A stretch of DNA of 64,000 nucleotides from Chrysomallon squamiferum. Taxonomy: Eukaryota > Animalia > Mollusca. A program made the translations under genes and the position numbers. The notes beneath the pieces were generated by a model, which was given only the letters and a program-made list of their open reading frames with translations, made no database searches and was not told the DNA's origin. The DNA lies in assembly GCA_012295275.1 (NCBI GenBank), contig CM022679.1, positions 26,350,001-26,414,000 of the forward strand, in the 5' to 3' direction. Below are positions 499-62,572 of this stretch, piece by piece (the stretch's first letter is position 1; each line of letters begins with the position of its first letter).

Positions 499-3290
499 AT
501 GGCTGAAAGTTGTGTTGTACCATTAATAGAAATTCGAGACGAGTTTGTTATTTGTGAAATTTGTTTAGACTATTTTAATGACGGAGATAAACTACCACGT
601 ATTTTACCATGTCACCACAGCTTTTGTTGTCAATGTTTGACGTCAGTGTGGAAGAATTTTCCAGAAGGACTAACATGTCCCAACTGTCGACAAATATGGC
701 CTGTTCAAAATAATATCGAGAAAACATTTCCACAAAACAAAGTGTTGACAGATTTGGTGGAGTATATAAGAATTAAAAATAATGCTGGAGAAATACTGTG
801 TCAAGTATGTTCCAGTAAACAGAAAGCAACGACCCGATGTTTCGATTGTGATACTCACGTGTGTGAAACATGCACATCATATCACATGAAATTTCCAAGT
901 ACAAAGCATCACAAGACAGTTTCTATATCGCAACTGGTGGAAATTCCACAATCTGAATTTTTCCAGAGAAAGGATATCTGTACATGTCACGAAAATATGA
1001 AAGTTGATGTTTACTGCAAGACGTGCTGTACAGCTGTCTGCTCTACGTGTGCATTCGTGTCTCACAAAGAACACGAAATCTGTAATCTGAAAGATGTCTA
1101 CAACGAGAAGAAGGAACAGATCAGAATCACTTTATGTAAGTTACAAACGTCCATAGAAAAATCTAAATCGTACACTGATAAACTGACTCGCGAGAAACAA
1201 ACATTGGAAGAGACACAAACACAAAGTCTAATGAAAATAGACAAAGCCAGTAAAGCAATCATTAAAAAGATTCAAGATTTGACACAACAGTTGAAAGATG
1301 AAATTGTTAGAAATGTTGACAAACAGAAATGTGATCGAGATGAACAGATAAAAGTGGTGAGTCAGTCGATAAATGAGAAAAGTGAACATCTTCTACACTG
1401 TCAACAAGCCTTGCAGTTCGCACGTCAAGTCGAATTTACTGAAATGTTCGAGTCTCTAGAAAACAAAACTAAACATTTGATTACGTCGTGTGTATTGTTT
1501 GAACTGCAGATGAAAAAGATCAACCTTGGTCTGGAGATATTTCGGGACTTTGAAATGATTTTGACCAAATCAAGACATATCGCTTGTTTCATGCAGAATA
1601 TTGACAAGACAGAGCAGGGTGGTGAAATGATGAGTGGTGTACTCTTACCACAGAAAATCAACGTTCCCGAGATGACGTCAGAAGATTTGGTTGAGTCTAT
1701 TTCAGAAAATGAGAAAAGGTCACTCGGTGCTGAACATGGATGTAGTAAAGACAATACTGAGATAACAGACGAACAAGGTGAATTTTCCGAATATTTCTCT
1801 GCATAAGCATTTTTTGTTTTTACCCCAAATAAACTGCAACTGTCAATTATCTTAAGAATTTAAAAGCTTTATCAAATTATTTTTCCCTTAATTTTGTTCA
1901 TTACTGATTGTTTGTATTTCAGAATATAGAGTTTCATCGGTTATTATTGAATTAACTCTAAATTTTGACGCATTTTTTTTCTAAGGATTCTTCAGCTGTT
2001 TCACTGATTGTTTAAATGTTCGATGTAAAATGTGATAAGGTTTTTTAGGTGCGGGTTTGATGCGGAAAATTCTAGTAGGTCAATACAAAGAAGTGTTTCG
2101 TAAGTAATTTTCATATTTTACAGACACACAGAGACAAATACACACACACACACATTAATATACACGTACACACACACAGACACAGAGGAAATGAGAATTG
2201 CCCCCGACTAGTATAATTAGATGTTCAGTTCAGGGAAAATAACTAATTAATAAAACTTTCCGGATTATTGTTCCTTGTATTGCAGAATTTACGTTGAAAA
2301 ATCTAATATATATTTATGTAAAATATCCCTAGAAATGATGTTATGAATTAATAACTTTATGAAAGTACAAGTTATTGCAAAAATACATTATCATTAGAGA
2401 TAGTTACGTATATAATTTATCTCCTCTTTATCTTTTGTTTATATTTGTATGTTTATTTATTTATTGATTTATTGATTTATTTGTATGTTATTGATTTATT
2501 TATTTATAGACAATGTGGAAGCTAAATTCGGTAACATTTGATTTGTAAAGAGAGGGAAAATATATTATTTGATGTCAGTAGAAAGTAATTCAAAGAAACA
2601 GAGATAATTATAGTTATATATGTATATTTTTATTTTACAGTACCCAGTATACAGTTTAATAAAAGTTATATGAACTGGGAATTTTGTACCATCACAGATT
2701 ATGGCGAATTGATCAACGAACCTTCACTTCAACCTGACACAGAACAAACCATCAAAGTTGAAACTTTTAATGGTGTTTTAGGAAACAAAACGTTTCACCA
2801 TCCAGTCTGTTATTACTGGCAGGTTGACGTTGTATGTAAAGTACTGGAAAATGCAGAACTTGACAAAATAGCAACTCAAATCGGTGTTTGCACAGAAGAA
2901 ACTTATGACGATGCCGATTTAATTTCAGAAAACAGACACGCCTGGTGTGTAAGTGTTGACACCTGCAGCGATCACAATAGTCTGTGTTTAGACGTTCATT
3001 CTCTTGGGGAGGAAATATCTGACAAACCTTTTGCAGATTTTGAAGAGAACAAAGAATTCATTCTGAATCTTGGGTTGCTGCTTGACACAAACAATAAAAC
3101 ATTTCACATTATTCGTTTAAATGAAAATAAATGTGAATACAGCATTCCTGACATTGATGTTTCAAAGCCTCTGATACCACTGTTTGGAGTTTATAGCTCT
3201 GCCATGTTTGATGTCAAAGTAGAAATTGTTTCTGCTGATCAAATGTTTCAAAACGATGAGTTACTCAAGTTAATATTTGACTTACTTTAA
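499..3290 (+). CDS. TRIM E3 ligase copy 1 (type A): RING-Bbox1-Bbox2-coiled coil-B30.2/SPRY-like, 3 coding exons, ~659 aa
   Basis: Exon 1 499-1777 (donor CAAG|gtgaat), exon 2 2049-2099 (ttttag|GTGCG...TTTC|gtaagt; GAGLMRKILVGQYKEVF), exon 3 2641-3290 (ttttacag|TACCC). Frames join without stops. C3HC4 RING (CEIC..PCHHSFCCQC..CPNC), B-box1 (CQVC..CFDC..CETC..H..H), B-box2 (CTCH..YCKTC..VCSTC..H..H), heptad-rich coiled coil, and SPRY hallmarks VLGNKTF..YYWQV, QIGV, LGLLLD, PLIPLFGV. Confidence 0.9.
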
Positions 3291-3981: not shown

Positions 3982-4030
<49 letters not shown>

Positions 4031-4447: not shown

Positions 4448-4508
<61 letters not shown>

Positions 4509-5504: not shown

Positions 5505-5830
5505 TATTTATGTCTGCCGCTCGAACTGAATCTGTCAGCGTGACCCAGTCGCTGATACAAGCTGCCCTTTGCGGTTAACACGTTGTTCAAGGTTGACCCA
5601 TTTTCACGATGATCGTGAAATATTTGTCGTGTGAGACAAGCTCCATAGAAAAGGGAGGATATTTACTTGTTAAGTGACAATTACGTTATAATGTCAATTT
5701 TCAGTATGCTCGGGTAAGTTAATGATAATTATATTGCTGTTGTCGTTTACAGTTTAAGCCATTAGTGACACTGAATACCGTGTCAGTCAAAACGCTGACA
5801 CTAATAATTAACTAGATAGTACTGTATTGG
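5505..5830 (+). promoter_or_regulatory. Conserved upstream block of TRIM units, with a conserved splice donor (candidate promoter/non-coding first exon)
   Basis: Paralogous blocks at ~24985-25265 (inverted), ~30190-30500, ~37243-37560 and ~57457-57790. Each retains G|GTAAGT (G|GTATGT in the inverted unit) about 1.4-2.7 kb upstream of the ATG. Confidence 0.45.
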
Positions 5831-8063: not shown

Positions 8064-10562
8064 ATGGCTGAAAGTTGTGTTGTACCATTAATAGAAATTC
8101 AAGACGAGTTTGTTATATGTGAAATTTGTTTAGACTATTTTAATGACGGAGATAAACAACCACGTATTTTACCATGTCACCATAGCTTTTGTTGTCAATG
8201 TTTGACGTCAGTGTGGAAGAATTCGCCAGAGGGAGTAACATGTCCCAACTGTCGACAAATATGGCCTGTTCAAAATAATATCGAGAAAACATTTCCACAA
8301 AACAAAGTGTTGACAGATTTGGTTGAGTATGTAAGAATTAAGAATAATGCTGGAGAAATACCGTGTCAAGTATGTTCCAATAAACAGAAAGCAACCACCC
8401 AATGTTTCGATTGTGATACTCACATGTGTGAAACATGCACATCATATCACATGAAATTTCCAAGTTCAAAGCATCACAAGACAGTTTCTATATCACAACT
8501 GGCGGAAATTCCACAATCTGAATTTTTCCACAGGAAGGATATATGTACAAATCACGAAAATATGAAAGTTGATGTTTACTGCAAGACGTGCTGTACAGCT
8601 GTCTGCTCTACGTGTGCACTCGTGTCTCACAGAGATCACGAAATCTGTAATCTGAAAGATGTCTACAGCGAGAAGAAGGAAAAGATCAAATCCACTTTAT
8701 GTAAGTTACAGACGTCCATAGAGAAATCAAAATCGTACACTGATAAACTGACTCGCGAAAAACAAACACTGGATGAGACAGAAGAAGAAAGTCTAATGAA
8801 AATAGATGAAGCCAGTAAAGAAATCATTAAAAAGATTCAAGATTTGACACAACAGTTGAAAGACGAAGTTGTTAGAAATGTTGACAAACAGAAAAGTGAT
8901 CGAGATGAACAGATAAAAGTGGTGACTCGGTCGATAAAAGAGAAAAGTGAACATCTTCTACACTGTCAACAAGCCTTGCAGTTCGCACGTCAAGTCGAAT
9001 TTACTGAAATGTTTGAGTGTCTCAAAAACCAAACAACAAATTTGATCAAGTACGGAGAACTCGTTGATTTAAAGATAAAGAAAATCGACTTACAGTTGGA
9101 TGTATTTGAACGTGTTGATAATGTAATAAAGAAGACTGCACTGATGTTTGACAAGTCAGAGATGATACCCTGTATTGAGATGACAGATTCTATTGTAGAA
9201 CGAGAATCTTGCGTTCTCAAAGTCAGACTCATCTCAAAGAAAAACAAATCACAGTCAGAAGCTGTTATTGAAACTCCTGGTGAAAGACACGAAACTGATA
9301 GAAAACGTCTAACAACGTCCATTTGTGGAAAGCTGTTTTACAAGCCGCGAAGACTCGGTCTTCACAAGACATCAGTCAGTGTTGATAGTTTTTACATTGA
9401 ACATGGCAGTCTCACATTTCACAGCAGAGAGGAGAGTTAGTATTTCAATCTGTGTTTTTATAATTGTGATACAAAACACAAAACTGAGACAAAATACACA
9501 CACACATAAAATAACGAATAATTCGTTTTCTGTTTTCAGCTGTTTAAAAATGTTAAACTTTTCAATCTCAAACTATATGATATTTTCTGCCTATGTTGAT
9601 TTACTTGAACGATTCACTGCCATGTATGGGACTGTGTTTCCGTTCTAAATGACTTCTTTCACATTAACAAATATTATTATCGTTATTGTTTATTTTAGAT
9701 GCTGAACTGACGAGAAAAGTTCTGATTGGACTTAACGAGCAATCCAACACATTTACTGAAGTATTGTGTGAGTGCAATATGTTTAAATTTCGTTTATGCA
9801 TTAACTGAGAAATATATTTATTAATTTACATTAATTGCATGTCTTTCTATCCAAAAAATGATATGCACATATGATGATAGATATACATGCTTATTATTTA
9901 TTTTTTCAGTACCCAACGTACAGTTTGATAAAAATGCCTTAAACTGGAAGTATTGTAAGATCACAGATTGTGGTGAATTGATCAACATATCTTCACCACT
10001 GCCTGACACAGAACAGACCTCTTCACTTAAAACTCTGATAGGCGCCACAGGAAACAAGACTTTTCACCATCCAGGCTGTTATTACTGGCAGACTGGTGTT
10101 GTGTGTAAAGTCCTGTCAAAGGCAGAACTTCACAAAGTAGCAGCTCAAATCGGTGTTTCTACACAACAAAATTACGATGATACAGAATTAATTTCAGAAA
10201 ACAGACACGCCTGGTGTGTAAGTGTTGACACCTGTAGAAACCACAACAGTCTGTGTTTAGACGTTCATTCTCTTCGGAAGGAAATATCTGACAAACCCGT
10301 TGCAGATTTTAAAAAGAAGAAACAATTCACCGTGAATCTTGGGTTGCTGCTTGACACAAAAAACAAAAAGCTTCACATTATTCGTTTAAATGAAAACAAA
10401 TGTGAATACAGTATTCCTCATATCGATGTTTCAAAGCCTCTGATACCAGCATTTGGTGTCCACAATCCTGATATGTTTTGTGTTAAACTGAAAGTTGTGT
10501 CTGCTTATGATGTGTCTCTAAACGATGAGTTACTAAAATTAATCTCTAATTTACTAAAATAA
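8064..10562 (+). CDS. TRIM copy 2 (type B): RING-Bbox1-Bbox2-CC-filamin-like-B30.2/SPRY-like, ~697 aa
   Basis: Exon 1 8064-9435 (GAGA|gttagt), exon 2 9699-9767 (ttttag|ATGCT...TTGT|gtgagt; NAELTRKVLIGLNEQSNTFTEVL), exon 3 9910-10562 (ttttcag|TACCC). All phase 1 and open throughout. Confidence 0.88.
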
Positions 10563-10649: not shown

Positions 10650-10849
10650 NNNNNNNNNNNNNNNNNNNNNNNNNNNNNNNNNNNNNNNNNNNNNNNNNNN
10701 NNNNNNNNNNNNNNNNNNNNNNNNNNNNNNNNNNNNNNNNNNNNNNNNNNNNNNNNNNNNNNNNNNNNNNNNNNNNNNNNNNNNNNNNNNNNNNNNNNNN
10801 NNNNNNNNNNNNNNNNNNNNNNNNNNNNNNNNNNNNNNNNNNNNNNNNN
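10650..10849. other. Assembly gap (200 N)
   Basis: Run of exactly 200 N; a round number suggests a placeholder scaffold join of unknown true size. Confidence 0.99.
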
Positions 10850-20180: not shown

Positions 20181-22494
20181 TTACTTTTTAAGTAATTTAG
20201 ATATTAGCTTCTTATCTAGAGACACCTTATCAGCAGAAACAATTTTCACTTTGACATCAAACATGTCAGGATTGTGGACACCAAATACTGGTATCAGAGG
20301 CTTTGAAACATCGATATGAGGAATACTGTACACAAGCTTCTCATCATTTACATTAATAATGTGAAGTTTTCTCTTTTTTGTGACAAGCAACAATCCAAGT
20401 CTGACATTGAATTCTTTGTTCTTTTCAAAATCTGCAAACGGCTTGTCAGATATTTGCTTCCCACGAATGTCAATGGCTAAACACAGACTGTTGTGATCGC
20501 TACAGGTGTCAACACTTACACACCAGGCGTGAATGTTTTCTGAAATTAATTCGGCATCGTCGTAAGTTTCTTCTGTACAAACACCGATTTGCGCTGCTAC
20601 TTTGTCAAGTTCTGCATTTTCCACTACTTTACACACAACGTCAACCTGCCAGTAATAACAGCCAGGATGGTGAAAAGTCTTGTTTCCTAAAACACCTTTA
20701 AAAGTTTCAACTTTGATAGTCTGTTCTGTGTCAGGTTGTTCTGAAGCTTTGTTGATCAGTTCACCACAGGCTGTGATGGCACAGTCCTTCCAGTTTACAG
20801 TACTTGTTTCAAACTGTATGCCTGGTACTGCAAAAATAGAAATGTAAATTACAGAACTATAATTAAAGCTGGGTATGTTTATATGAGTATTTAGTTATTT
20901 GAAATTTTGCAGATAATTGTCGCTACGTTTCAAACTGCATAGCTAAATCTTTCTGTTTACACAGTGGATTTGATAAAAACTCTTCTAACAATGGAAAGCG
21001 AAAAGTACTTACGAAACACTTCTTTGAACTGACCTACAGCAATTGTCCGCATCAAATCCGCATCTGAAAAACATCATCACATTCTACAACGAATCAGTAT
21101 AAGCATTTAAATAATCCTCAGAAAAAGAATGCATAAACATTTACTGTTATTTCAGTAACAAACCTCTGTATTAAGAGAAGAAAAAAGTTATCAAAATATA
21201 AATAACCAAATAAAGGGTAAAATAATCACAAAATAACTGACAGGAGCAGTTTATCAAGAACTCAAAGAAAAAAGAAAAAGAAAAAGAAGAAGAACGAATT
21301 GAAAAATGTACCTTGTTGGCTGCTTATCTCAGTATTGTCTTCAATACATCCATGATCAGCATCCAGTGACATTTCTTCATTTTCTGAAAGAGTCTGAACA
21401 CAGTCTTCTGACGTCATCCCGGTAACTTTGATTTTCTTGTCAATGTCCCAAAATATTTTCAGACCAAGGTTGATCTTTCTCATCTGCACTTTTACCAATA
21501 CACTCGACGTAATCAAATGTTCAGTTTTGTTTTTCAGACACTCAAACATTTCAGTAAATTCGACTTGACGTGCGAACTGCAAGGCTTGTTGACAGTGTAA
21601 AAGATGTTCACTTTTCTCATTGATCGACCGAGTCACCACTTTTATCTCTTCATCTCGATCACATTTCTGTTTGTCAACATTTCTAACAACTTCATTTTTC
21701 AACTGTTGTGTCAAATCTTGAATCTTTTTAATGATTTCTTTACTGGCTTCATCTATTTTCATTATACTTTCTTCTTTTGTCTCATCCAGTGTTTGTTTTT
21801 CTTTAGTCAGTTTATCAGTGTACGACTTAGATTTTTCTATGGACGTCTGTAACTGACATAAAGTGGATTTGATCATTTCCTTCTTATCGTTGTAGACATC
21901 TTTCAAATTACAGATTTCGTGATCTCTGTGAGACAGAAGTGCACACGTAGAGCAGACAGCTGTACAGCACGTCTTGCAGTAAACATCAACTTTCATATTT
22001 TCGTGATTTGTACAGATATCCTTTCTCTGGAAAAATTCAGACTGTGGAATTTCTGCCAGCTGTGATATATCCACTGTTTTATGGTGTTTTGTACTTGAGA
22101 ATTTGATGTGAGAAGCTCTACATCTTTCACACATGTACTCGCAACAAGTGAGGCAATAAGCTATTGCTGTGGACCTGTCTGGACAGTCATGACATAATAT
22201 TTCACCAGGATTATTCTTAATTCTTATATATTCCATCAAATCTGTCAACAGTTTGTTTTGTGGAAATGTTTTCTCGATATTATTCTGAACAGGCCATATT
22301 TGTCGACAGTTGGGACATGTTACTCCTTCTGGTGAATTGTTCCACACTGATATCAAACATTGACAACAAAAGCTATGGTAACATGGTAAAATACGTGGTA
22401 GTTTATCTCCGTCATTAAAATAGTCTAAACAAATTTCACATAGAACAAACTCGTCTCGAATTTCTATTAATGGTACAACACAACTTTCAGCCAT
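20181..22494 (-). CDS. TRIM copy 3 (type A, inverted, variant B-box1, shortened linker), ~626 aa
   Basis: Minus strand. Exon 1 22494-21312 (ATGGCTGAA.. to CAAG|gtacat), exon 2 21063-21013 (DADLMRTIAVGQFKEVF, |gtaagt), exon 3 20827-20181 (tttgcag|TACCA). Open throughout. B-box1 is CHDCPDRSTAIAYCLTCCEYMCERCRASH. Confidence 0.88.
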
Positions 22495-25630: not shown

Positions 25631-27969
25631 AGAATAATCCTGGTGAAATATTATGTCATGATTGTCCAGACAGGTCCACAGCAATAGCTTATTGCCTCAC
25701 TTGTTGCGAGTACATGTGTGAAAGATGTAGAGCTTCTCACAGCAAATTCTCAAGTACAAGACACCATAAAACAGTGGATATATCACAGCTGGCAGAAATT
25801 CCACAGTCTGAATTTTTCCAGTGAAAGGATATCTGTACAAATCACGAAAATATGAAAGTTGATGTTTACTGCAAGACGTGCTGTACAGCTGTCTGCTCTA
25901 CGTGTGCACTTGTGTCTCACAAAGATCACGAAATCTGTAATCTAAAAGATGTCTACAGCGAGAAGAAGGAAAAGATCAAATCCACTTTATGTCAGTTACA
26001 GACGTCCATAGAAAAATCTAAATCGTGATAAACTGACTCGCGAAAAACAAACACTGGATGACACAGAAGAAGAAAGTCTAATAAAAATAGACGAAGCCAG
26101 TAAAGAAGTTATTAAAAAGATTCAAGATTTGACACACCAATTGAAAAAGGAAGTGTGTAGAAATGTTGACAAACAGAAATGTGTTCGAGATGAAGAGATA
26201 AAAGTGGTGACTCCGTCGATAAAAGAGAAAAGTGAACATCTTCTTCACTGTCAACAAGCCTTGCAGTTCGCACGTCAGGTCGAATTTACTGAAATGTTTG
26301 AGTGTCTGGAAAACAAAACAATAACTTTGATCAAGTGTGGAGAATTGGTTGATTTAAAGATACAGAAAATCGACTTACAGTTGGATGTATTTAAACGTAT
26401 TGATAATGTAATAAAGAAGACTGCAGAGATGTTTGACAAGTCAGAGATGATACCCTGTATTGAGATGACAGATGCTATTGTAGGGCGAGAATCTTGCGTT
26501 CTCAAAGTCAAACTCATCTCAAAGAAAAACAAATCACAGTCAGAAGCTGTTATTGGAACTCCTGGTCAAAGACACAAAACTGAAGAAAAAAAACGTTTCA
26601 CTACGTCCATTTGTGGAAACTGCTTTATACGCCGCTAAGACTTCACAAGGCTTCAGTCAGTGTTGGTAGTTTTCATTTTGTACATGACAGTCTTATATTT
26701 CACAGTTAGTATTTCAGTCTGTTTTTTAGATTTGAAATACAAAATGAGACGTGAGTTTCATGTAATTATATAAAGGGACGATTTTATTTTAGTTTCCAAA
26801 AGTAAATATATTATTATGTATATATATATTTTTAATGATTCTTCTTTTCCTAAAAGAAATCTCTCTCCCATCTAAAACTGTATTTCGGTGTCATATGATT
26901 TGTTTCACATTAACAAATATTATTTTCAGTATTGTTTGCTTTAGATGCTGAGCTCATGAGGAAAGTTCTGATTGGTCTGGACGTGCAGTCGAATACATTT
27001 AATGAAATACTGTGTGAGTAGAAAACATTTAATATTCGTTAATCCGTCATCTGAGAAATAAATGTATTAATTCATATGAATTGCATGTCTTTCTATCCAA
27101 AAACTGAATCCACACATCACCTTTTTTTTATGAGATCTATGAGGTTACAAGAGTGTCAAAATTATCTGTCCCATTCCGAATCCATCTATGTATTTTATTT
27201 TATTTTATTTTTTATTTTTTATGTGATATTAATCCAACGAAACACACAGAGATAATTATAGTTATATATGAATATTTTTATTATTGCAGTACCAAACGTA
27301 CAGTTTGATAAAAATGCAGTAAACAGGAAGAATTGTAACATCACAGACTGTGGTGAATTGATCAACACATTTTCAGTACGACCTTACACAGAACAGACCA
27401 TCAAAGTTCAAACGTTTAAAGGTGTTTTAGGAAACAAGATGTTTCACCATCCAGGCTGTTATTACTGGCAGGTTGACGTTGTATGTAAAGTACTGGAAAA
27501 TGCAGAACTTCACCATGTGGCAGCTCAAATCGGTGTTTGTACAGAACACAATTTCGATGATGCAGCTGCAATTTCACAGAATAGTCACGCCTGGTGTGTA
27601 AGTGTTGACACCTGTAGAGATCACAACAGTCATTGATGTTTAGTCATTGATTATTGTGGAGATGAAATAGATGACAAGCCGTTTGCAGATTTTGAAAAGA
27701 ACAAAGAGTTCATTGTGAATATTGGGTTGTTGCTTGACACGAAAAACAAAATGCTGCACATTATTGAGATAAATGCAAACAAATGTGAATACAGCATTCC
27801 TGATATTGATGTTTCAGAGCCTCTGATACCAGTATTTGGAGTCTATCGCCCTGACATGTTTGATGTTAAAGTAAAAGTTCTTTCTGGTGATGATGTGTCT
27901 CTAAACGACGAATTACTAAAATTAATCTTTAATATAATCAAAAAAAAAAAAATACATGAAAATGTGTAA
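25631..27969 (+). pseudogene. TRIM copy 4 pseudogene (type B tail; RING deleted)
   Basis: Homology starts just before B-box1 (~25631) with no RING upstream. Lesions: AGA>TGA stop at 25822-25824, 5-nt deletion near 26025 (tcgt[acact]gataaa), further indels ~26580-26705, and an insertion with stop in the SPRY exon ~27630. Exon 2 26945-27013 and the exon 3 acceptor at 27290 are retained. Confidence 0.88.
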
Positions 27970-32329: not shown

Positions 32330-35212
32330 ATGGCTGAAAGTTGTGTTGTACCATTAATAGAAATTCGAGACGAGTTTGTTATATGTGAAATTTGTTTAGA
32401 CTATTTTAATGACCGAGATAAACTACCACGTATTTTACCATGTCACCATAGCTTTTGTTGTCAATGTTTGACATCTGTGTGGAACAATTCGCCAGAGGGA
32501 GTAACATGTCCCAACTGTCGACAAATATGGCCTGTTCAAAATAATATCGAGAAAACATTTCCACAAAACAAAGAATTCACAGATTTGGTGGAGTATATAA
32601 GAATTAAGAATAAAGTTGGAGAAATATCGTGTCAAGTATGTTCCAATAAACAGAAAGCAACGACCCAATGTTTCGATTGCGACACTTACATGTGTGAAAC
32701 ATGCACGTCATGGCACATGAAATTTCCAATATCAAAGCATCACAAGACAGTTTCCATATCGCAACTGGCGGAAATTCCACAGTCTGAATTTTTCCAGAGA
32801 AAGGATATCTGTACATATCACGAAAATATGAAAGTTGATGTTTACTGCAAGACGTGCTGTACAGCTGTCTGCTCTACGTGTGCACTTGTGTCTCACAAAG
32901 ATCACGAAATCTGTAATCTACAAGATGTCTACAACGATAAGAAGGTAAAGATCAAATCCACTTTATGTCAGTTAGAAAAATCTGAATCGTCCACTGATGA
33001 ACAGACAAAAGAAAAACAAACACTGGAAGAGATAAAAAAACGAAGTCTAATGAAAATAGATGAAGCCAGTAAAGAAGTTATTAAAAAGATTCAAGATTTG
33101 ACACAGCAATTGAAAAACGAAGTGTGTACAAATATTGACAAACAGAAATGCGATCGAGATGAACAGATAAAAGTGGTGACTCCGTTGATAAAAGAGAAAA
33201 GTGAACATCTTCTACACTGTCAACAAGCCTTGCAGTTCGAACGTCAAGTCGAATTTACTGAAATGTTTGAGTGTCTGGAAAACAAAATAACAACTTTGAT
33301 CAAGTGTGGAGAATTGGTTGATTTAAAGATAGAGAAAATCGACTTACAGATGGATGCATTTGAACGTATTGATAATGAGATAAAGCAGACTGCAGTGATG
33401 TTTGACAAGTCAGAGATGATACCCTGTATTGAGATGACAGATGCTATTGTAGAACGAGAATCTTGCGTTCTCAAAGTCAGACAAATCTCAGAGAAAAACA
33501 AATCACAGTTAGAAGCTGTTGTTCAAACTCCTGGTGAAATGTACGAAACTGATGGAGAACGTCTAACAACGTTCATTTGTGGAAAGCTGCTTTACACGCC
33601 GCTAAGACTCGGTCTTCACAAGACTTCAGTCAGTGTTGATAGTTTTCACATTGAACATGACAGTCTCACATTTCACAGCAGAGAGGAGAGTTAGTATTTC
33701 AGTCTGTATTTTAATATTTGTAATATACAATGGAAAACTGAGATTATGACATTTGTGTGTGTGTACACACATACATACACTTACCCAACATAGATAGATA
33801 GATATATATATATATAAAATAAAATAAAATAAAATGAAATAAAATAAAATAAAACAAGGAAAAGAAATAAAATAACGAATAATTCATTTTCTGTTTTCAG
33901 CTGTAAAACTTTTCAATTTGAAACAAAGTTTTTATAAAAGTAGCTTTTGTGTGATTTTTTCTGCCTGTGTTGTTTTACTTAAACGATTCACTGCCATGTA
34001 TGAATCTGTGTTTCCGTTTTAAATGACTTCTTTCACACTAACAAATATTATTATCGTTATTGTTTATTTTAGATGCTGAACTGACGAGAAAAGTTCTAAT
34101 TGGACTCAACGTGCAGTCCAACACGTTTACTGAAGTATTATGTGAGTAAAACATATTTAATATACGTTTATCCGATAACTCAGAACTAAATTTATTAATT
34201 TATATGAACTGCATGTCTTTCTATTGAAAAACTGAATGTACACATTATTAAAAAGTATTTAAAAAAAAACATTCATTCCAGATTTATGAAGAGAGAAGAA
34301 AGTATTAAAATTGTATATCCACTACGAATCCATCTGTGTATTTTATTTTTGATTTGTTTATTCCTTTGTCAGTTTAATTATTTATGAATATTTTCATTTC
34401 TTTCTTCATTTCTTTGTTTCTTTAACTATTTATTTTATTTTATACTACAAAAAAGGAGGATCAAGCGAGATTTAAAATATAAAATGTTATTTATCATCAG
34501 AACTTTTTCTTGCCGGAGATAATTATAGTTATAGACATGTATTTTTATTTTAACAGTACCCAATGTACAGTTTAATAAGAACTGTGTAAACTGGAGGTAT
34601 TGTAACATCACAGATTCTAATGGATTGACCAGGAAACCTCCACTACGACCTGACACAGAACAAACTTCCAAACTTAAATGTTTTGAAGGTGTTTTAGGAA
34701 ACAAGACTTTTCACCATCCTGGCTGTTATTACTGGCAGGCTCGCGTTGTCTGTAAAGTACTGGAAACTGCACAACTTAACACAGTGGCAGTTCAAATCGG
34801 TGTTTGTACAGAAGAAAATTATGACGATGCCGAATTAATTTCAGAAAACAGACACGCCTGGTGTGTAAGTGTTGATACCTGCAGTAATCACAAACGTCTG
34901 TGTTTAGACGTTTATTCTCTTGGGGAGGAAATATCTGACAGGCCGTTTGCACATTTTGAAAAGATCAAAGAATTCATTGTGAATCTTGGATTGTTGCTTG
35001 ACACAAAAAATAGAAAACTTCACATTATTCGTTTAAATGTAAACAAATGTGAATACAGCATTCCTGATATTGACGTTTCAAAGCCTCTGATACCAGTATT
35101 TGGAGTCTATAGCCCTGCCACGTTTGATGTCAAGGTGAAAGTTGTTTCTGCTGATAATATGTTTCAAAACGAAGAGTTACTCAAGTTAATCTCTAATTTA
35201 CTTAAAAAATAA
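32330..35212 (+). CDS. TRIM copy 5 (type B), ~694 aa
   Basis: Exon 1 32330-33689 (GAGA|gttagt; in-frame 12-nt deletion in the coiled coil), exon 2 34073-34141, exon 3 34557-35212 (taacag|TACCC). Open throughout. Confidence 0.88.
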
Positions 35213-40155: not shown

Positions 40156-43089
40156 ATGGTTGAAAGTTGTGTTGTACCATTAATAGAAATTCGAGACGAG
40201 TTTGTTATATGTGAAATTTGTTTAGACTATTTTAATGACGGAGATAAACTACCACGTATTTTACCATGTCATCATAGCTTTTGTTGTCAATGTTTGACTT
40301 CAGTGTGGAAGAATTCGCCAGAGGGAGTAATATGTCCCAACTGTCGACAAATATGGCCTGTTCAAAATAATATCGAGAAAACATTTCCACAAAATAAAGT
40401 ATTGACAGATTTGATGGAATATATAAGAATTAAGAATAATGCTGAACAAATACCGTGTCAAGTATGTTCCAATAAACAGAAAGCAACGACCCGATGTTTC
40501 GATTGTGATACTCACATGTGTGAAACATGCACATCATATCACATGAAATTTCCAAGTTCAAAGCATCACAAGACAGTTTCTATATCACAACTGGCGGAAC
40601 TTCCACAATCTGAATTTTTCCAGAGAAAGGATATCTGTACAAATCATGAAAATATGAAAGTTGATGTTTACTGCAAGACGTGCTGTACAGCTGTCTGCTC
40701 TACGTGTGCACTTGTGTCTCACAAAGATCACGAAATCAGTAATCTGAAAGATGTCTACAGCGAGAAGAAGGAAAAGATCAGATACACTTTGTGTCAGTTA
40801 CAGACGTCCATAGAGAAATCAAAATCGTACATTGATAAACTGACTTACGAGAAACAAACACTGGATGAGACAGAAGAACGAAGTCTAAAACAAATAAACG
40901 AAGCCAGTAAAAAAGTCATTAAAAAGACTCGAGATTTGACACGTCACTTGAAAGATGAAGTTGTTAGAAATGTTGAGAAACAGAAATGTGATCGAGATGA
41001 ACAGATAGAAGAGGTGACTCGGTCGATAAATGAGAAAAGTGAACATCTTCTACACTGTCAACAAGCCTTGCAGTTCGCACGTCAAGTCGAATTTACTGAA
41101 ATGTTTGAGTCTCTGGTAAACAAAACAACAACTTTGATCAAGTGCGGAGAACTTGTTGATTTAAAGATAAATAAAATCGACTTACAGTTGCAAACATTTG
41201 AACGTATTGATAATGTAATAGAGAAGACTGTAGAGATGTTTGACAAGTCAGAGATGATACCCTGTATTGAGATGATAGACGCAATTGTAGGACGAGAATC
41301 TTGCGTTCTCAAAGTCAGACTCATCTCAAAGAAAAACAAATCACAGTCAGAAGCTGTTATTGAAACTCCTGGTGAAAGACACGAAACTCATAGAAAACGT
41401 CTAACAACGTCCATTTGTGGAAAGTTGTTTTACAAGCCGCTAAGACTCGGTCTTCACAAGACTTCAGTCAGTGTTGATAGTTTTTACATTGAACATGACA
41501 GTCTCACATTTCACAGCAGAGAGGAGAGTTAGTATTTCAGTCTGTGTTTTTATAATTGTGATACAAAATACCAAACTGAGAAAAAATACACACACACATA
41601 CACATACACACCCTCCCCCACATACGCCCCCAACATAGCTAGATAGATATTGTTTAAAATCAAATAAAATAATGTACAATAAAATAAAAGGAAATAAAAT
41701 AACGAATAATTCTTTTTCTGTTTTCAGCTGTTTAAAAAGTTAAACTTTTCAATCTCAATCTATTATAAAAGTAGCTTTTGTTTGACTTTTTCTGCCTATG
41801 TTGTTTTACTTAAACGATTCACAGCCATGTATGAGTCTGTGTTTCCGTTTTAAATGACTTGTTTCACAATAACAAATATTAGTCTTTATTTTAGATGCCG
41901 AACTCATGAGAAAAGTTCTGATTGGTCACAGCGATGGGTCTAACACGTTTGACGAAGTACTGTGTGAGTAGAAAAGGTTTAATATACGTTTATCCGTTAA
42001 TTGGGAAATACATTTTTTAATTTACATGAATTACAAGTCTTTCTATCCAAAAACTGAATCCAAACACTATTATTATATCTATATCTTTTTCATTATTATT
42101 ATTCCCTAAAAGACTTGTGAGCATAGAACAAAGTGCTAAAAGATGCCCATACACCAACTGTTAATTCTGAATTTTGTTTGTTTATTTTTAAAATTATGTC
42201 TCTCTTCTATTTTTTTATCCGTCTGGCTGTTTATTTATTTATTAATATTTTTGTTTTTTCTTCGTTTGTCTGCTTATTCATTATTTGCTTTATTTTACAC
42301 TACAGATTGTTGGTAAAGCAATATATATAGCATAACATGTTATTTGTCATCACAACTGTTTCGTGTCCGCAGAAATTAAATTTAAAACAACAACAACAGT
42401 GATAGTTATAGTTATATATGTATATTTCTATTTTTACAGTACCCGATATACAGTTTGTTAGAAATACTTTGAACTGGAAGTATTGTAACATCACAGATTG
42501 TGGTGAATTGATCAACAAATCTTCAGTACGAACTGACTCAAAACAAACTTCCAAACTTAACTTTCTGATAGGTGTTTTAGGAAACAAGACTTTCCTCCAT
42601 CCAGACTGTTATTACTGGCAGGCTGATGTTGTGTGTAAAGTACTGGAAAAGGCAGAACTTCATAAAGTGGTCGCTCAAATCGGTGTTTGTACAGAAGAAA
42701 ATTACGATACTTCACATCTGATTTCAAAAAACAGACATGCGTGGTGTGTATCTGTGACGACTTGTCACAATCACAAAAGTTTTTGTCTGTATAGTTTTTC
42801 AAGAGAAAGAATTCGCACTGACAATCCGTTCACCGATTTTAAACAAGAGGCGCGGTTTGAACTTACACTGGGATTCTTGCTCGACTTAAAAAATAGAAAA
42901 CTTCACATTATTCGAGTAAATGAAAACAAATGTGAATACAGCATTCCTGATATTGACGTTTCAAAGCCTCTGATACCAGTATTTGGAGTCTATAGCCCTG
43001 ACATGTTTGATGTCAAAGTGAAAATTGTTTCTGGTGATGATATGTCTCTAAACGATGAGTTACTCAAGTTAATCTCTAATTTACTTTAA
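40156..43089 (+). CDS. TRIM copy 6 (type B) with a divergent SPRY patch, ~696 aa
   Basis: Exon 1 40156-41527, exon 2 41895-41963 (NAELMRKVLIGHSDGSNTFDEVL), exon 3 42440-43089. Canonical splice sites, open throughout. Confidence 0.88.
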
Positions 43090-50590: not shown

Positions 50591-53500
50591 ATGGCTGAAA
50601 GTTGTGTTGTACCATTAATAGAAATTCGAGACGAGTTTGTTATATGTGAAATTTGTTTAGACTATTTTAATGACGGAGATAAACTACCACGTATTTTACC
50701 ATGTCACCATAGCTTTTGTTGTCATTGTTTGACTTCAGTGTGGAAGAATTCTCCAGAAGGAGTAACATGTCCCAACTGTCGACAAATATGGCCTGTTCAA
50801 AATACAATCGAGAAAACATTTCCACAAAACAAAGTATTGACAGATTTGGTGGAGTATATAAGAATTAAGAATAAAGTTGGAGAAATACTGTGTCAAGTAT
50901 GTTCCGAAAAAAGGAAAGCAACGATCCGATGTTTCGATTGCGATAGTCACATGTGTGAAACCTGCACCTCATGGCACATCAAATTTTCAATATCAAAGAA
51001 TCACAAGACAGTTTCTATATCGCATTTGGCGGAAATTCCAGAGTCTGAATTTTTCCAGAGGAAGGATATCTGTAAAAATCACGAAAATATGAAAGTTGAT
51101 GTTTACTGCAAAACGTGCTGTACAGCTGTCTGCTCTACGTGTGCACTTGTGTCTCACAGAAATCACGAAATCTGTAATCTCAAAGATGTCTACATCGAGA
51201 AGAAGGAACAGATCAAGTCCACTTTATATCAGTTACAGACGTCTATAGACAAATCAAAATCGTACACTGATAAACTGACTCGCGAAAAACAAACACTGGA
51301 TAAGACAGAGGAAGAAAGTATAATGAAAATAGACGAAGCCAGTAAAGAAGTGATTAAAAAGATTCAAGATTTGACACAACAGTTGAAAGATGAAGTTATT
51401 AGAAATGTTGACAAACAGAGATGTGATCGAGATCAACAGATAAAAGTGGTGACTTGGTCGATAAGAGAGAAAAGTGAACATCTTCTACACTGTCAACAAG
51501 CCTTGCAGTTCGCACGCCAGGTTGAATTTACTGAAATGTTTGAGTCTCTGAAAAACAAATCTAAATGTTTGGTTACATCTACTGTATTGGTTGAACTGCA
51601 AATGAAAAAGATCAACCTTGGTCTGAAAATATTTTGCGACTTTGAAAAGATTTTGAACAAATCAGCAGTCGTCTACAATGGATCAAGACGTATCGCTTGT
51701 TTTATACAGAATCGTGACAAGACAGAGCAGAATGGTGAAATGATGAGAGGTGTTCTGTTACCACAGAAAATCAAAGTTACCGAGATGACGTCAGAAGATT
51801 TTGTAGAGACTCTTTCAGAAAATGAAAAAATGTCACTCGCTCATGATCATGGATGTATTAAAAACAATACTGAAATAACCGAACAAGAAGGTAAAATTTC
51901 CAATTCTTTTTGCGCATAAACATCTTCTTCTTCTTTTTTTTTTTAATAAACTGCTAGTCACAAGTCTTTTAAGAATTTGAAATCATTTTCAAATTATTTC
52001 TCCCTTGATTTGGGTCATTGCTGGCTATTTGTATTTTAAGAACATTTTTCCTTCTTTTAATGACGTCCTTTAATTGATTTCGAAATAATTATTAATTCTG
52101 ATTATTTTTTTTTTTTCAATAATGATTGTTGAAGTGCTTATACTCATTATCTGAACATTGGATACAGAGTCCTGTGTTGTTTTTCAGATGGGTGTTTGAT
52201 GCTGAAACTTTTTGTAGGTCAATACAGAGAAGTTTTTCGTAAGTAATTTTCATGTCACACACACACAGACATACATACACACACATATACGCACAGATAT
52301 ACACACATATCACATCATACACATAGACGCACACATACACACATACACACAAAAGGACACGCATACAAACATATCACATCACTTATAGCATACACACATA
52401 TACACAAGCATGCACATACCCGGAAATACACATCACAAACACACATCACACAAACAAAAGCACACAGAAAAATAGATACACAGACACACACAAACACAGA
52501 CATGGACATACATAAACACAAACACACACACATACACACACTCATAGACATCATATGAAAATTGCCCCTTAATAATGTTTGATACAAAGCACAAATTTAT
52601 AAAACTTTCCAGATTATAGTTTCCTTGGATTGCACAATTTTCATTCAATGTAAGATATATTTATATTAAGTTTCGCTAGATATGAATTTAGTAATTAGTA
52701 ACTTTATAGAGGTACATGTTATTACAAAAATACAATATCATACGAGATACTGACGAACGTAAGTTATCTTCTCTTGACATACTTGTTTTCAGATAAGAAA
52801 AAACAAATATTAATATGTCATATTTTAAAATATATGCATAAACGTTTGGTCAGGATTGATGTTAAATAAAATTAAATAAAACAAACAAACAATCAGACAA
52901 TCATGTACATATACCCTACTTCTGCAGATGTTTTAAATAGATACATTTAATTATATTCATAAGTAAACACAGTCATTCAGAATATCCAAGCATTAAACAT
53001 CACATAATAGTTAGAATTAGAAATTTTATGTTACTACATATATTACGTGTTGCTCTTTAATGAAATATAATCGGTAGAATTGTATATAAAAACATTTTTA
53101 ATTCTTTAATTTTTTTTTAAATTTAATAGAAAAAATGGATGTTAAAATGGGTTAAATTTGATTTGTAAACATGGATAAAATATGTTTCATCAGAATATGT
53201 TAGAAGAAAGTAATTCAAAGTCATACAGATATAGTTAAGGTTTTATGTGTACTTATTTATTTTTGCAGTACCCAGTATACAGTTTGATAAAAATGCTGTA
53301 AACCGGAAGTGTTGTAACATCACAGAGTGTGATGAATTGATCAACAAACATTCACTACCACCAGACACAGAAGACACCTCCACACTTAAATGTTTTAAAG
53401 GTGTTTTAGGAAACAAGACTTTCCACCATCCAATCTGTTATTACTGGCAGGTTGACGTTGCAGGTAAAGTACTGTCAAAGGCAGAACTTGATACAGTGAC

Positions 53501-53942
53501 AGCTCAAGTCGGTGTTTGTACAGACCAAAATTATGATGATTTAGAACTAATTTCATACAACACACACGCCTGGTGTGTAAGTGTTGATACCTGCAGTAAT
53601 CACAACAGTCTGTGTTTAGACGTTAATTCTCTTGGTGAGGAAATATCTGACAAGCCGTTTGCAAATTTTGAAAAGAATAAAGAATTCATTGTGAATATTG
53701 GATTGTTGCTTGACACAAAAAATAGAAAATTTCACATAATTCGTTTAAATGTAAACAAGTGTGAATACAGCATTCCTGATATTGACGTTTCAAAGCCTCT
53801 GGTACCAGTATTTGGAGTCTACAGCCCTCGCACATTTGATATCAAAGTAAAAGTCGTTCCTGCTGCTGATGTGTTTCAAAATGACAAGTTACTTAGGTTA
53901 ATCTCTAATTTACTTAAAAATGATATTACATTGTATAATTGA
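50591..53942 (+). CDS. TRIM copy 7 (type A), ~674 aa
   Basis: Exon 1 50591-51890 (GAAG|gtaaaa), exon 2 52188-52238 (DGCLMLKLFVGQYREVF), exon 3 53269-53942 (ttttgcag|TACCC). Open throughout. Confidence 0.88.
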
Positions 53943-58685: not shown

Positions 58686-61600
58686 GAAGAAGAAGAATAC
58701 ATAATACATAATTTGTACGTCTCAAAAAACTGTCACCAAATACACATGTTAAAATGATTTATTAGTAATACTGTATTAGACATTAAGGAGTTTAAATGAT
58801 ACGACTTTGTTCATAGTATTTAGGTATGTTAGTCTCTTTCCCATGAGAAACTAACACAATACAGCGACTTTATCTAGAAACGACATCAGTTATTATATTT
58901 CACTTAATTATCGCTCGGATAATAAATAAACCTTTCAGTGGTACGTCAAAATATTTTACTGTTTTATTGATTTGATTTCTAAGTTGTTTTTCATATATTC
59001 GAACAGGTAATATGGAATGATATTGCACTGAAGATATGACAACCCTGCTTCTACAGATATTTCTTGATACGAATTCCACGATACTTTAATATGACCCACA
59101 ATGGCTGAAAGTTGTGTTGTACCATTAATAGAAATTCGAGACGAGTTTGTTATTTGTGAAATTTGTTTAGACTATTTTAATGACGGAGATAAACTACCAC
59201 GTATTTTACCATGTCACCACAGCTTTTGTTGTCAATGTTTGACTTCAGTGTGGAAGAATTTTCCAGAAGGACTAACATGTCCCAACTGTCGACAAATATG
59301 GCCTGTTCAAAATAATATCGAGAAAACATTTCCACAAAACAAAGTGTTGACAGATTTGGTGGAGTATATAAGAATTAAAAATAATGCTGGAGAAATACTG
59401 TGTCAAGTATGTTCCAGTAAACAGAAAGCAACGACCCGATGTTTCGATTGTGATACTCACGTGTGTGAAACATGCACATCATATCACATGAAATTTCCAA
59501 GTACAAAGCATCACAAGACAGTTTCTATATCGCAACTGGTGGAAATTCCACAATCTGAATTTTTCCAGAGAAAGGATATCTGTACATGTCACGAAAATAT
59601 GAAAGTTGATGTTTACTGCAAGACGTGCTGTACAGCTGTCTGCTCTACGTGTGCACTTGTGTCTCACAAAGATCACGAAATCTGTAATCTGAAAGATGTC
59701 TACAGCGAGAAGAAGGAAAAGATCAGAATCACTTTATGTAAGTTACAAACGTCCATAGAAAAATCTAAATCGTACACTGATAAACTGACTCGCGAGAAAC
59801 AAACACTGGAAGAGACACAAACACAAAGTCTAATGAAAATAGACAAAGCCAGTAAAGCAATCATTAAAAAGATTCAAGATTTGACACAACAGTTGAAAGA
59901 TGAAATTGTTAGAAATGTTGACAAACAGAAATGTGATCGAGATGAACAGATAAAAGTGGTGAGTCAGTCGATAAATGAGAAAAGTGAACATCTTCTACAC
60001 TGTCAACAAGCCTTGCAGTTCGCACGTCAAGTCGAATTTACTGAAATGTTCGAGTCTCTAGAAAACAAAACTAAACATTTGATTACGTCGTGTGTATTGT
60101 TTGAACTGCAGATGAAAAAGATCAACCTTGGTCTGGAGATATTTCGGGACTTTGAAATGATTTTGACCAAATCAAGACATATCGTTTGTTTCATGCAGAA
60201 TATTGACAAGACAGAGCAGGGTGGTGAAATGATGAGTGGTGTACTCTTACCACAGAAAATCAACGTTCCCGAGATGACGTCAGAAGATTTGGTTGAGTCT
60301 ATTTCAGAAAATGAGAAAAGGTCACTCGGTGCTGAACATGGATGTAGTAAAGACAATACTGAGATAACAGACGAACAAGGTGAATTTTCCGAATATTTCT
60401 CTGCATAAGCATTTTTTGTTTTTACCCCAAATAAACTGCAACTGTCAATTATCTTAAGAATTTAAAAGCTTTATCAAATTATTTCTCCCTTAATTTTGTT
60501 CATTACTGATTCTTTGTATTTCAGAATATAGAGTTTCATCGGTTATTATTGAATTAACTCTAAATTTTGACGCATTTTTTTTCTAAGGATTCTTCAGCTG
60601 TTTCACTGATTGTTTAAATGTAAAATGTGATAAGGTTTTTTAGGTGCGGGTTTGATGCGGAAAATTCTAGTAGGTCAATACAAAGAAGTGTTTCGTAAGT
60701 AATTTTCATATTTTACAGACACACAGAGACAAATACACACACACACATTAATATACACGTACACACACACAGACACAGAGGAAATGAGAATTGCCCCCAA
60801 CTAGTATAATTAGATGTTCAGTTCAGGGAAAATAACTAATTAATAAAACTTTCCGGATTATGTTCCTTGTATTGCAGAATTTACGTTGAAAAATCTAATA
60901 TATATTTATGTCAAATATCGCTAGAAATGATGTTATGAATTAATAACTTTATGAAAGTACAAGTTATTGCAAAAATACATTATCATTAGAGATAGTTACG
61001 TATATAATTTATCTCCTCTTTATCTTTTGTTTATATTTGTATGTTTATTTATTTATTGATTTATTGATTTATTTGTATGTTATTGATTTATTTATTTATA
61101 GACAATGCGGAAGCTAAATTCGGTAACATTTGATTTGTAAAGAGAGGGAAAATATATTATTTGATGTCAGTAGAAAGTAATTCAAAGAAACAGAGATAAT
61201 TATAGTTATATATGTATATTTTTATTTTACAGTACCCAGTATACAGTTTAATAAAAGTTATATGAACTGGGAATTTTGTACCATCACAGATTATGGCGAA
61301 TTGATCAACGAACCTTCACTTCAACCTGACACAGAACAAACCATCAAAGTTGAAACTTTTAATGGTGTTTTAGGAAACAAAACGTTTCACCATCCAGTCT
61401 GTTATTACTGGCAGGTTGACGTTGTATGTAAAGTACTGGAAAATGCAGAACTTGACAAAATAGCAACTCAAATCGGTGTTTGTACAGAAGAAACTTATGA
61501 CGATGCCGATTTAATTTCAGAAAACAGACACGCCTGGTGTGTAAGTGTTGACACCTGCAGCGATCACAACAGTCTGTGTTTAGACGTTCATTCTCTTGGG

Positions 61601-62572
61601 GAGGAAATATCTGACAAGCCTTTTGCAGATTTTGAAGAGAACAAAGAATTCATTCTGAATCTTGGGTTGCTGCTTGACACAAACAATAAAACATTTCACA
61701 TTATTCGTGTAAATGAAAACAAATGTGAATACAGCATTCCTGACATTGATGTTTCAAAGCCACTGATACCACTGTTTGGAGTTTATAGCTCTGCCATGTT
61801 TGATGTCAAAGTAGAAATTGTTTCTGCTGATCAAATGTTTCAAAACGATGAGTTACTCAAGTTAATATTTGACTTACTTTAAAAAAATTAATGAAATCTA
61901 TTGTGTGTGTTTGTGTGAAACTACCAATTTCAATAAACTAAATGAAAAATAGCTATGATAATATTAATTTTATTTGTTCATTATTACCTTTCTTTAGAAA
62001 TTTTTTATTATTATTATTATTATTAAATTTTACTATTAAATATGTCTTTGTAGTTTCTTTACACGTTTTATCTTCTTCCTCTTCTATTCTGTTTTATTTA
62101 AGTAATTATTAATAAATTGTTTCTTTAACTTCTTTTCATTATTATCGTTCTTATTGTTTGTAATATCTTGAATTTAATATCTAAGTAATTATAAAGAACA
62201 CTAAAAAATAAAAATTGTTTGGCTTCAGGTCATTTCCAATCATATTTTTGGTTGCGTTCGGAGACGAATGGTCGAAAATAATACGTATTCTCCCGTTCTC
62301 AGTAATTTCAATACGGTTTCAATAATTTCAGCATAACACCTTGTTATTCATCTTAACATCAAATGTGCATACAGTGTAAATATTCTTTATAATTGTAAAT
62401 AGCAATAAAACTGATGACGTCAAAGATTTTACCTGTAATTAACGGACGATAGTTCGATATGTTGTAAGCGGCTTGCCCCGTGGATTCTATTCTTTGCGCT
62501 GAATTGACAAATGGTTGTAAGTACCAGTCAAACGACCTGATTTTCACATTTCGAATTAATTTGTCAAAACGT

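What the first reader, a model, noticed from the sequence alone, without database searches (positions are those of the whole stretch)
9168..9435. Type B copies appear to place a degenerate filamin-type Ig domain between the coiled coil and SPRY
Seen: copies 2, 5, 6 and pseudogene 4 end exon 1 with ~90 beta-rich residues, e.g. CVLKVRLISK..AVIETPGE..GKLFYKPRRLGLHKTSVSVDSFYIEHGSLTF. Established: filamin repeats end in Y.P...G.h.i.V...g..I.GSPF, and filamin-bearing TRIMs (TRIM2/3/71 with NHL, TRIM45 alone) do not carry SPRY. Inference: RING-B1-B2-CC-filamin-SPRY is an unusual architecture, perhaps from a TRIM45/NHL-type ancestor acquiring a SPRY exon at a phase-1 junction.
Basis: partly seen in the sequence, partly recalled or inferred. 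Interest (0 to 1): 0.72.

Follow-up and report, generated by a model that had tools for sequence, protein, structure and literature searches.

The report
Mollusc TRIMs joining filamin and SPRY
A cluster of snail ubiquitin-ligase (TRIM) genes carries a worn-down filamin-type domain in front of a hard-to-detect SPRY domain, a pairing shared with abalone and bivalve proteins, and the filamin part likely acts as a dispensable spacer that has been swapped or lost repeatedly.

Summary
Copies 2, 5 and 6, and broken copy 4, end their first coding exon with a ~97-residue segment homologous to filamin-type Ig domains. Pfam misses it. A profile of bivalve relatives' segments (6 named ones hit Pfam Filamin) scores the three copies 21-25 bits, with 0 of 500 shuffles as high. 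A model built on a deeper alignment returns filamin domains in 10 of the top 11 structural matches, at weak Z.

Corrections: a 69-nt mini-exon lies between this exon and the PRY/SPRY exon, and both joints appear in RNA contigs of 4 of 4 runs from one study. The architecture is not local. RING-B1-B2-CC-filamin-SPRY occurs in ten named gastropod and bivalve species, so the fusion is probably older than their split. The filamin part was lost or eroded repeatedly. In this array it sits in an A/B middle cassette that recombines independently of the RBCC and SPRY parts. No description turned up in ten literature searches. Function is untested; a ligase with SPRY as target reader and filamin as spacer is inferred. 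New variant of a known kind.

The parts
5516..5713 (+). Upstream non-coding exon region of copy 2 (5' end not mapped; donor after about 5713)
   Evidence: A loose end of an RNA contig at 7969 matches 5693-5712, followed by a GT donor; approximate
8064..9435 (+). Copy 2 first coding exon, CDS part: RING, B-box1, B-box2, coiled coil, filamin-derived domain; ends in phase 1
   Evidence: ORF, donor, RNA joint 9435->9699 in 4 of 4 runs
8118..8255 (+). RING finger (residues 19-64), C3HC4 pattern with Arg after the last Cys
   Evidence: Pfam zf-C3HC4 30.4 bits, above cut-off; pattern in 7 of 7 models
8364..8654 (+). B-box1 (about 101-140) and B-box2 (157-197)
   Evidence: Pfam zf-B_box with 2 stretches; ANCHR-like_BBOX 101-140 below cut-off
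8664..9044 (+). Coiled coil (about residues 201-327); A/B similarity breaks off at about 9046
   Evidence: Only weak coiled-coil family hits; family profile aligns to TRIM3/TRIM28 constructs over this part; breakpoint
9144..9434 (+). Eroded filamin-type Ig domain of copy 2 (residues 361-457); middle part (395-417) shortened and poorly modelled
9699..9767 (+).
   Evidence: RNA joints
9910..10562 (+). Divergent PRY/SPRY (B30.2) exon, 216 codons
   Evidence: No Pfam SPRY hit for this copy; copy 7 E 0.0023; family profile hits MID1, TRIM21, TRIM25 and butyrophilin B30.2 structures; Atlas
26429..26706 (+). Filamin-derived segment of broken copy 4 (frameshifted), type B
33398..33688 (+). Filamin-derived domain of copy 5 (gene 32330-35212, mini-exon 34073-34141)
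   Evidence: RNA joints
41236..41526 (+). Filamin-derived domain of copy 6 (gene 40156-43089, mini-exon 41895-41963)
   Evidence: joint 41963->42440
499..3290 (+). Copy 1, type A: acidic linker and 51-nt mini-exon instead of the full filamin domain
20181..22494 (-). Copy 3, type A, inverted, linker about 39-46 residues shorter still
50591..53942 (+). Copy 7, type A; linker keeps a faint trace of the first half of the filamin domain
   Evidence: 6.6 bits, 3 of 1000 shuffles
59101..61882 (+). Copy 8, type A, 99-100% identical to copy 1 in coding DNA

Best explanation
The segment is an eroded filamin-type Ig domain in a spliced TRIM gene of a mollusc family built RING-B1-B2-coiled coil-filamin-SPRY; the protein likely works as a dimeric ubiquitin ligase that reads its targets through SPRY, with the filamin domain likely serving as a dispensable spacer or coiled-coil docking module. 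Shown: homology, three-coding-exon structure, presence in gastropods and bivalves, forms with and without the domain, and independent sorting of the middle cassette among the array's copies. Inferred: the fusion predates the gastropod-bivalve split; the domain still folds; paralogues heterodimerise; the targets are immune-related.
For: Homology: (21.5-24.5 bits, 0 of 500 shuffles; hhalign probability 96%, E 2e-9, neomphaline versus bivalve profiles). Pfam Filamin falls at the aligned position in 6 of the 9 relatives that match the profile end to end, 2 of them above the cut-off. For Gigantopelta P0001, the Atlas's ten best hits with a family share the filamin family or clan, best score 0.86, a lead only. 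Fold: Foldseek rank 1 is the Lin-41 filamin domain (probability 0.92, E 0.21, TM 0.48); VIA gives 10 filamin domains in the top 11 of 48,161 chains (Z 4.3-5.0, rmsd 2.8-4.0, 61-77 aligned). Splicing. Age: the SPRY tree divides into one side whose named rows are bivalve and one whose named rows are gastropod (support 100), each holding forms with and without filamin; the RBCC tree puts 16 of 16 filamin+SPRY rows in one 58-row group (SH 92). Dispensability: 33 of 180 proteins have this SPRY without a detectable filamin (three are SPRY-only fragments, four are window type A); relatives show internal deletion or a ~210-residue insertion. Ligase: intact RING, pN/pS 0.32 over RING and B-boxes. Precedent for filamin-coiled-coil contact: TRIM2/TRIM3 (PMC9732051, passages).
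Against: No Pfam Filamin hit on any window or Gigantopelta protein scanned. The model from the 9-row neomphaline alignment was poor (pLDDT 51) and matched nothing. The better model (pLDDT 68, pTM 0.56) used an alignment that holds filamin-positive bivalve rows, so it is not independent of the sequence evidence; it leaves residues 395-417 under pLDDT 50, has no Foldseek E at or below 0.001, and its Z values tie with other Ig folds. Against canonical TRIM filamin domains from other architectures the window copies score only 4.6-8.2 bits (2-8 of 500 shuffles). pN/pS in the domain is 0.86 (6 synonymous, 19 non-synonymous), not distinguishable from neutral. There is no functional data. SPRY pN/pS is 0.47, so no overall signal of positive selection.
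Confidence: 0.75

Rival explanations
1. The segment descends from a filamin domain but no longer folds or matters; it is a decaying linker on its way to the type A state.
For: pN/pS 0.86, with 9 of 19 amino-acid changes in residues 395-421; 97 residues against 104-108 in bivalve and abalone relatives; model middle unresolved; four of seven open copies lack it.
Against: It keeps 29-40% identity to six Gigantopelta proteins, close to SPRY's 39-41%. There is no indel among the three open type B copies. The outer strands model at pLDDT 75-92. The coiled coil also shows pN/pS 1.0, so the small-sample ratio is weak evidence.
Confidence: 0.17
2. The filamin domain is itself a second target-binding surface, and its fast-changing middle reflects diversifying selection.
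For: Changes cluster in 395-421 (9 non-synonymous, 1 synonymous; pN/pS 2.8). Filamin repeats bind peptides on the face formed by their middle strands (recalled).
Against: Not significant (p 0.47). This part is the shortened and poorly modelled one. Type B copies are 93-97% identical in DNA here, far more uniform than SPRY at 75-86%.
Confidence: 0.05
3. The segment is not filamin-derived: another Ig-like fold, a degenerate C2H2 finger or an FN3-like unit.
For: No direct Pfam hit; two zinc-finger chains at E 0.47 and 1.5; structural Z values tie with RAGE, LigA and Rib domains.
Against: An aligned series runs from the window through Gigantopelta and abalone to Pfam-positive bivalve domains at the same position in collinear proteins. 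The finger-like residues are not kept in relatives.
Confidence: 0.03

Closest known systems
TRIM45 (R-B1-B2-CC-IGFLMN; class X, Marin subfamily C)
   Same: Same order RING, two B-boxes, coiled coil, filamin (PMC2533329 Table 1). NCBI names two scallop members 'TRIM45-like'.
   Different: TRIM45 ends at filamin in that table; these continue through a mini-exon into PRY/SPRY. Orthology to TRIM45 was not shown.
TRIM2, TRIM3, TRIM71/LIN-41 (class VII, filamin + NHL)
   Same: Filamin directly after the coiled coil. Lin-41 and TRIM3 filamin structures are among the best fold matches; a TRIM3 construct is the top RBCC hit.
   Different: SPRY stands where NHL repeats stand. The filamin domain is eroded and often lost. 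These genes form a recombining tandem array.
Vertebrate class IV / group 2 TRIMs (TRIM5, TRIM21, TRIM25, fish finTRIMs)
   Same: RBCC plus C-terminal PRY/SPRY, clustered lineage-specific duplication, SPRY the most diverged module among copies. Type A copies approach this layout.
   Different: No filamin in any of them. Reported as absent from the invertebrates then studied (PMC2533329), though PMC3137616 notes trim-like B30.2 genes in several invertebrates. The SPRY here is a divergent type under the Pfam cut-off.
Class I TRIMs (MID1, TRIM9: R-B1-B2-CC-COS-FN3-SPRY)
   Same: A beta-sandwich spacer between coiled coil and SPRY; MID1 PRYSPRY is the best SPRY structure hit (E 4e-8).
   Different: The spacer is filamin-type, not COS-FN3; no FN3 or COS hit at this position.

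Membership tests
TRIM/RBCC family | N-terminal RING, B-box(es), coiled coil in order | tested here: met
   Pfam RING and B-box above cut-off; profile aligns to TRIM3/TRIM28 constructs through the coiled coil
TRIM/RBCC family | E3 ligase activity and dimerisation | not testable with these tools
   RING pattern intact in 7 of 7 models; activity needs an assay
Filamin/ABP280 repeat (PF00630) | Score at or above the Pfam cut-off (26.9 bits) | tested here: not met
   No hit for the window copies at E up to 10; met by relatives P0029, P0035, P0049 and P0041
Filamin/ABP280 repeat (PF00630) | Sequence homology to recognised filamin domains | tested here: met
   21.5-24.5 bits, 0 of 500 shuffles against the bivalve profile; hhalign 96%
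Filamin/ABP280 repeat (PF00630) | Complete Ig-like beta-sandwich | tested here: inconclusive
   Outer strands modelled, residues 395-417 not; filamins rank first but Z 4.3-5.0, rmsd 2.8-4.0 over 61-77 residues
PRY/SPRY (B30.2) | Homology to solved B30.2 domains | tested here: met
   Family profile hits MID1 (E 4e-8, profile 499-683), TRIM21, BTN3 and TRIM25; Pfam SPRY E 1e-4 to 3e-3 in several members and 6e-8 in the two-SPRY P0023. The window-only profile found nothing in the PDB.
Class VII TRIM-NHL | C-terminal NHL repeats | tested here: not met
   No NHL hit on window exons or on the full-length family members scanned
Class X / TRIM45 | Protein ends after the filamin domain | tested here: not met
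   Spliced on to mini-exon and SPRY exon
Marin subfamily C (TRIM2/3/32/45/56/71) | RBCC groups with subfamily C sequences in a tree | tested here: inconclusive
   TRIM3 and TRIM28 tie; the FastTree has weak deep support and only one named non-mollusc row
Class IV / group 2 | SPRY directly after RBCC, no other domain | tested here: not met
   Type B has filamin between; type A has an acidic linker with at most a faint remnant

The most novel reading that the evidence does not exclude
Molluscs evolved their own undescribed class of TRIM5/TRIM21-like sensors by placing SPRY where NHL sits on a filamin-bearing TRIM chassis, then reached the vertebrate RBCC-SPRY layout many times by shedding filamin. 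This array catches that in progress, with an exchangeable A/B middle cassette that resets SPRY spacing on shared ligase and sensor modules.
Probability: 0.35. Interest if true: 0.72.

Novelty: new variant of a known kind. Interest (0 to 1): 0.52.

Why it matters
The TRIM classifications read here list no filamin+SPRY form and treat fast-duplicating RBCC-SPRY genes mainly as a vertebrate feature. This family gives molluscs, including farmed abalone and scallops, a candidate set of intracellular target-reading ligases. Annotation hides it: in none of the proteins scanned with Pfam did both domains pass their cut-offs, and only P0027 showed both at all. The array also offers natural with-and-without-filamin pairs on near-identical RBCC modules, a ready test of what the filamin domain does in TRIMs.

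Tried and rejected
Direct Pfam scans of the segment gave no family. phmmer against PDB sequences gave only two zinc-finger chains at E 0.47 and 1.5, rejected as chance. A word-based homologue search on residues 330-458 found none of 47 candidates, and the SPRY alignment against longer proteins found none of 7996; both are weak negatives, as the profile search later found such proteins. The window-only SPRY profile had no PDB hit. The first fold (9 rows, pLDDT 51) gave no meaningful Foldseek or VIA match. A frameshift origin of the type A linker is not supported: 9 frames tested, only copy 7 in its own frame scored (6.6 bits, 3 of 1000 shuffles; copy 1, 439 of 1000), and DNA similarity to type B was marginal (51, 15 and 5 of 300 codon shuffles). 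Overall positive selection on SPRY was not seen (pN/pS 0.47); no site-level test was run. An assembly or exonised-intron artefact is rejected by the RNA joints and by Gigantopelta proteins with the same layout. No whole genome was available, so copy number outside the window is unknown. Two look-ups of earlier findings returned nothing. No complex was predicted.

Full report
What is there. The window holds a tandem array of TRIM genes: seven copies with open three-exon models (627-698 codons including the stop), one frameshifted copy and an orphan SPRY fragment. In copy 2 the first coding exon runs 8064-9435 and ends in phase 1. A 69-nt mini-exon (9699-9767) and a 216-codon last exon (9910-10562) follow. 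RNA contigs from 4 of 4 runs of one study skip 9436-9698 and 9768-9909 with GT..AG ends, while bins wholly inside the first intron have no cover. The short side of the first joint is only 20-29 letters, and close paralogues may contribute. Matching joints were seen for copies 5 and 6 in single contigs. The closest named relatives are seven Gigantopelta aegis proteins at 38-47% identity over residues 150-458; two full-length ones have the same layout including the mini-exon peptide. The window is therefore probably from a related gastropod (inference).

Is the segment filamin? Pfam and PDB sequence searches on the segment itself are blank. A full-length profile searched against 1.84 billion representatives returned 150 best hits, of which 9 match end to end in one stretch. 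Three are gastropod (two Gigantopelta, one Haliotis) and six bivalve (Solemya twice, Potamilus, Argopecten twice, Pinctada). All six bivalve proteins hit Pfam Filamin at the position aligned with the window segment, two above the cut-off; the three gastropod ones do not (29 of the 150 hits were scanned and 22 further proteins). An HMM from these six segments plus one unnamed protein scores copies 2, 6 and 5 at 24.4, 24.5 and 21.5 bits, 0 of 500 shuffles each. Type A linkers score below zero. Profile-profile comparison of neomphaline and bivalve segments gives probability 96%, E 2e-9. Against five filamin domains from other TRIM architectures the direct signal is weak (4.6-8.2 bits), so the link runs through the bivalve forms. 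The Atlas search with a Gigantopelta homologue points the same way but scores under 0.9.

Fold. With 9 neomphaline rows AlphaFold gave pLDDT 51 and no useful match. With 25 rows it gave pLDDT 68 and a beta-sandwich whose outer strands are confident and whose middle (protein residues 395-417) is not. Foldseek ranks the Lin-41 filamin domain first (E 0.21, probability 0.92) and filamin A domain 17 second. VIA lists filamin domains in 10 of its first 11 rows, at Z 4.3-5.0, tied with other Ig folds. This agrees with the sequence evidence but is not independent of it. The window domain is 97 residues against 104-108 in bivalves and abalone, the deletions lying in the unmodelled middle. That middle is the peptide-binding face in filamin repeats (recalled).

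Is the last exon SPRY? One of three window exons scanned hits Pfam SPRY, at E 0.0023. The family profile hits the MID1, TRIM21, butyrophilin and TRIM25 B30.2 structures (best E 4e-8), and the Atlas returns SPRY clusters. In no protein scanned did filamin and SPRY both pass the Pfam cut-offs; only P0027 showed both at all. That probably explains why the sources call these proteins TRIM45-like, TRIM56-like, PML-like or uncharacterised.

How old and how stable? Family HMMs, partly built from the same proteins, label 28 of 180 sequences as filamin+SPRY (3 are window models; isoforms and near-copies are included) and 33 as SPRY without filamin. Named filamin+SPRY proteins come from ten species: G. 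aegis, four Haliotis, Solemya velum, Potamilus streckersoni, Sinanodonta woodiana, Argopecten irradians and Pinctada imbricata. In a 142-row RBCC FastTree (19 isoforms and near-copies dropped) the window copies group with Gigantopelta, then Haliotis, inside a 58-row group (SH 92) that holds 16 of 16 filamin+SPRY rows and 16 of 19 SPRY-only rows. The 40-row SPRY tree splits into a side whose named rows are bivalve and a side whose named rows are gastropod (support 100). Both sides mix the two forms, needing 9 changes (6 forced by starred branches; three rows are fragments that inflate this). The trees are unrooted, so gain and loss cannot be formally told apart. One old fusion with repeated loss is the simpler reading because the filamin segments are homologous on both sides. 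Nothing here tests presence outside Mollusca.

Within the array. Similarity between type B copy 2 and type A copies 7 and 8 stops at about 9032-9046 and resumes at about 9871-9894. Between these points A and B are about 45-57% identical in coding DNA, against 86-96% in RING and coiled coil and 75-86% in SPRY. The middle cassette separates A from B at 100/100, but type B as one clade is rejected for RBCC (p-AU 6e-11) and for SPRY (p-AU 0.025). So the three modules have different histories, as recombination or gene conversion would give. Among the three open type B copies pN/pS is 0.32 for RING and B-boxes, 0.47 for SPRY, 1.02 for the coiled coil and 0.86 for filamin (25 changes; not different from neutral, nor significantly from RING and B-boxes, Fisher p 0.13). 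Over longer time the domain is about as conserved as SPRY (29-40% versus 39-41% to Gigantopelta). The type A linker may be a further-decayed filamin; only copy 7 shows a trace.

Mechanism. From established TRIM biology (recalled): the coiled coil forms an antiparallel dimer, RING recruits E2, and the C-terminal domain selects targets. Here the RING is intact and constrained, SPRY is the most diverged module among copies, and filamin is eroded in its middle and absent from many relatives. The best reading is a spacer or docking module that sets SPRY position or paralogue pairing. TRIM2 contacts the TRIM3 coiled coil through its filamin domain (PMC9732051, passages seen). An immune role is inferred only from the clustered, recombining, SPRY-variable pattern.

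Literature. PMC2533329 (passages and part 1 of 2 of section 6 with Table 1) lists IGFLMN only in TRIM2, 3, 45 and 71, none with SPRY, and reports SPRY-bearing group 2 absent from the invertebrates examined. PMC3503706 (passages) groups TRIM45 with TRIM2/3/32/56/71 as subfamily C and has no occurrence of 'mollusc' or 'Lottia'. PMC3137616 (passages) mentions trim-like B30.2 genes in several invertebrates. Ten searches turned up no title or abstract opening describing a filamin+SPRY TRIM; three with mollusc terms returned no paper. Other papers were seen as listings only, no supplements were read, subscription journals are not covered, and InterPro could not be queried, so absence from print is not established.

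Verdict. A real and expressed feature, rightly read as filamin between coiled coil and SPRY. It belongs to an apparently undescribed but widespread molluscan TRIM architecture, here in an eroded, exchangeable form. New variant of a known kind; interest 0.52.

Noticed in passing
window 37448 -> 41895 -> 42440: One RNA contig (run X3, depth 6.4, 29 letters on the short side) joins the upstream non-coding exon directly to copy 6's mini-exon and SPRY exon, skipping the whole RBCC-filamin exon. An in-frame ATG in that mini-exon (about 41906) could give a SPRY-only product. Weak, single contig.
   Followed up: partly
P0009 (Gigantopelta, XP_041361079.1): A gene model joins RBCC plus the filamin-like domain to a PABP-type MLLE domain (E 2.5e-29) at the point where the window exon ends; a possible second domain swap at this junction, or a model error.
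   Followed up: no
P0018, P0172, P0173 (Haliotis): The filamin domain appears split by a low-complexity insertion of about 210 residues in its middle.
   Followed up: partly
P0023: Family member without filamin that has two tandem SPRY domains.
   Followed up: no
P0036, P0038, P0051, P0053: Other TRIM fusions among the hits: RBCC-filamin repeated (with an HSP70 hit in P0038), and RBCC-filamin joined to RanBP2-like parts (P0053 is Branchiostoma).
   Followed up: no
window 11200-11935 +: Two apparent exons that read like a fibronectin type III domain (by eye, not scanned) from another gene, next to the N gap at 10650-10849.
   Followed up: no
window 35568-36120 +: Orphan, frameshifted partial SPRY exon closest to copy 1's SPRY (100/100), with about 1.4 kb of shared sequence in all.
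   Followed up: partly
window 2-5459 and 58588-64000: 97% identical over about 5.5 kb (copies 1 and 8): a very recent duplication or two haplotypes assembled in tandem.
   Followed up: no
window 20181-22494 (-) and 25630-27950 (+): Copies 3 and 4 are divergently oriented and share a distinct B-box1 region (100/100 in the RBCC tree), although one is type A and the other type B.
   Followed up: partly
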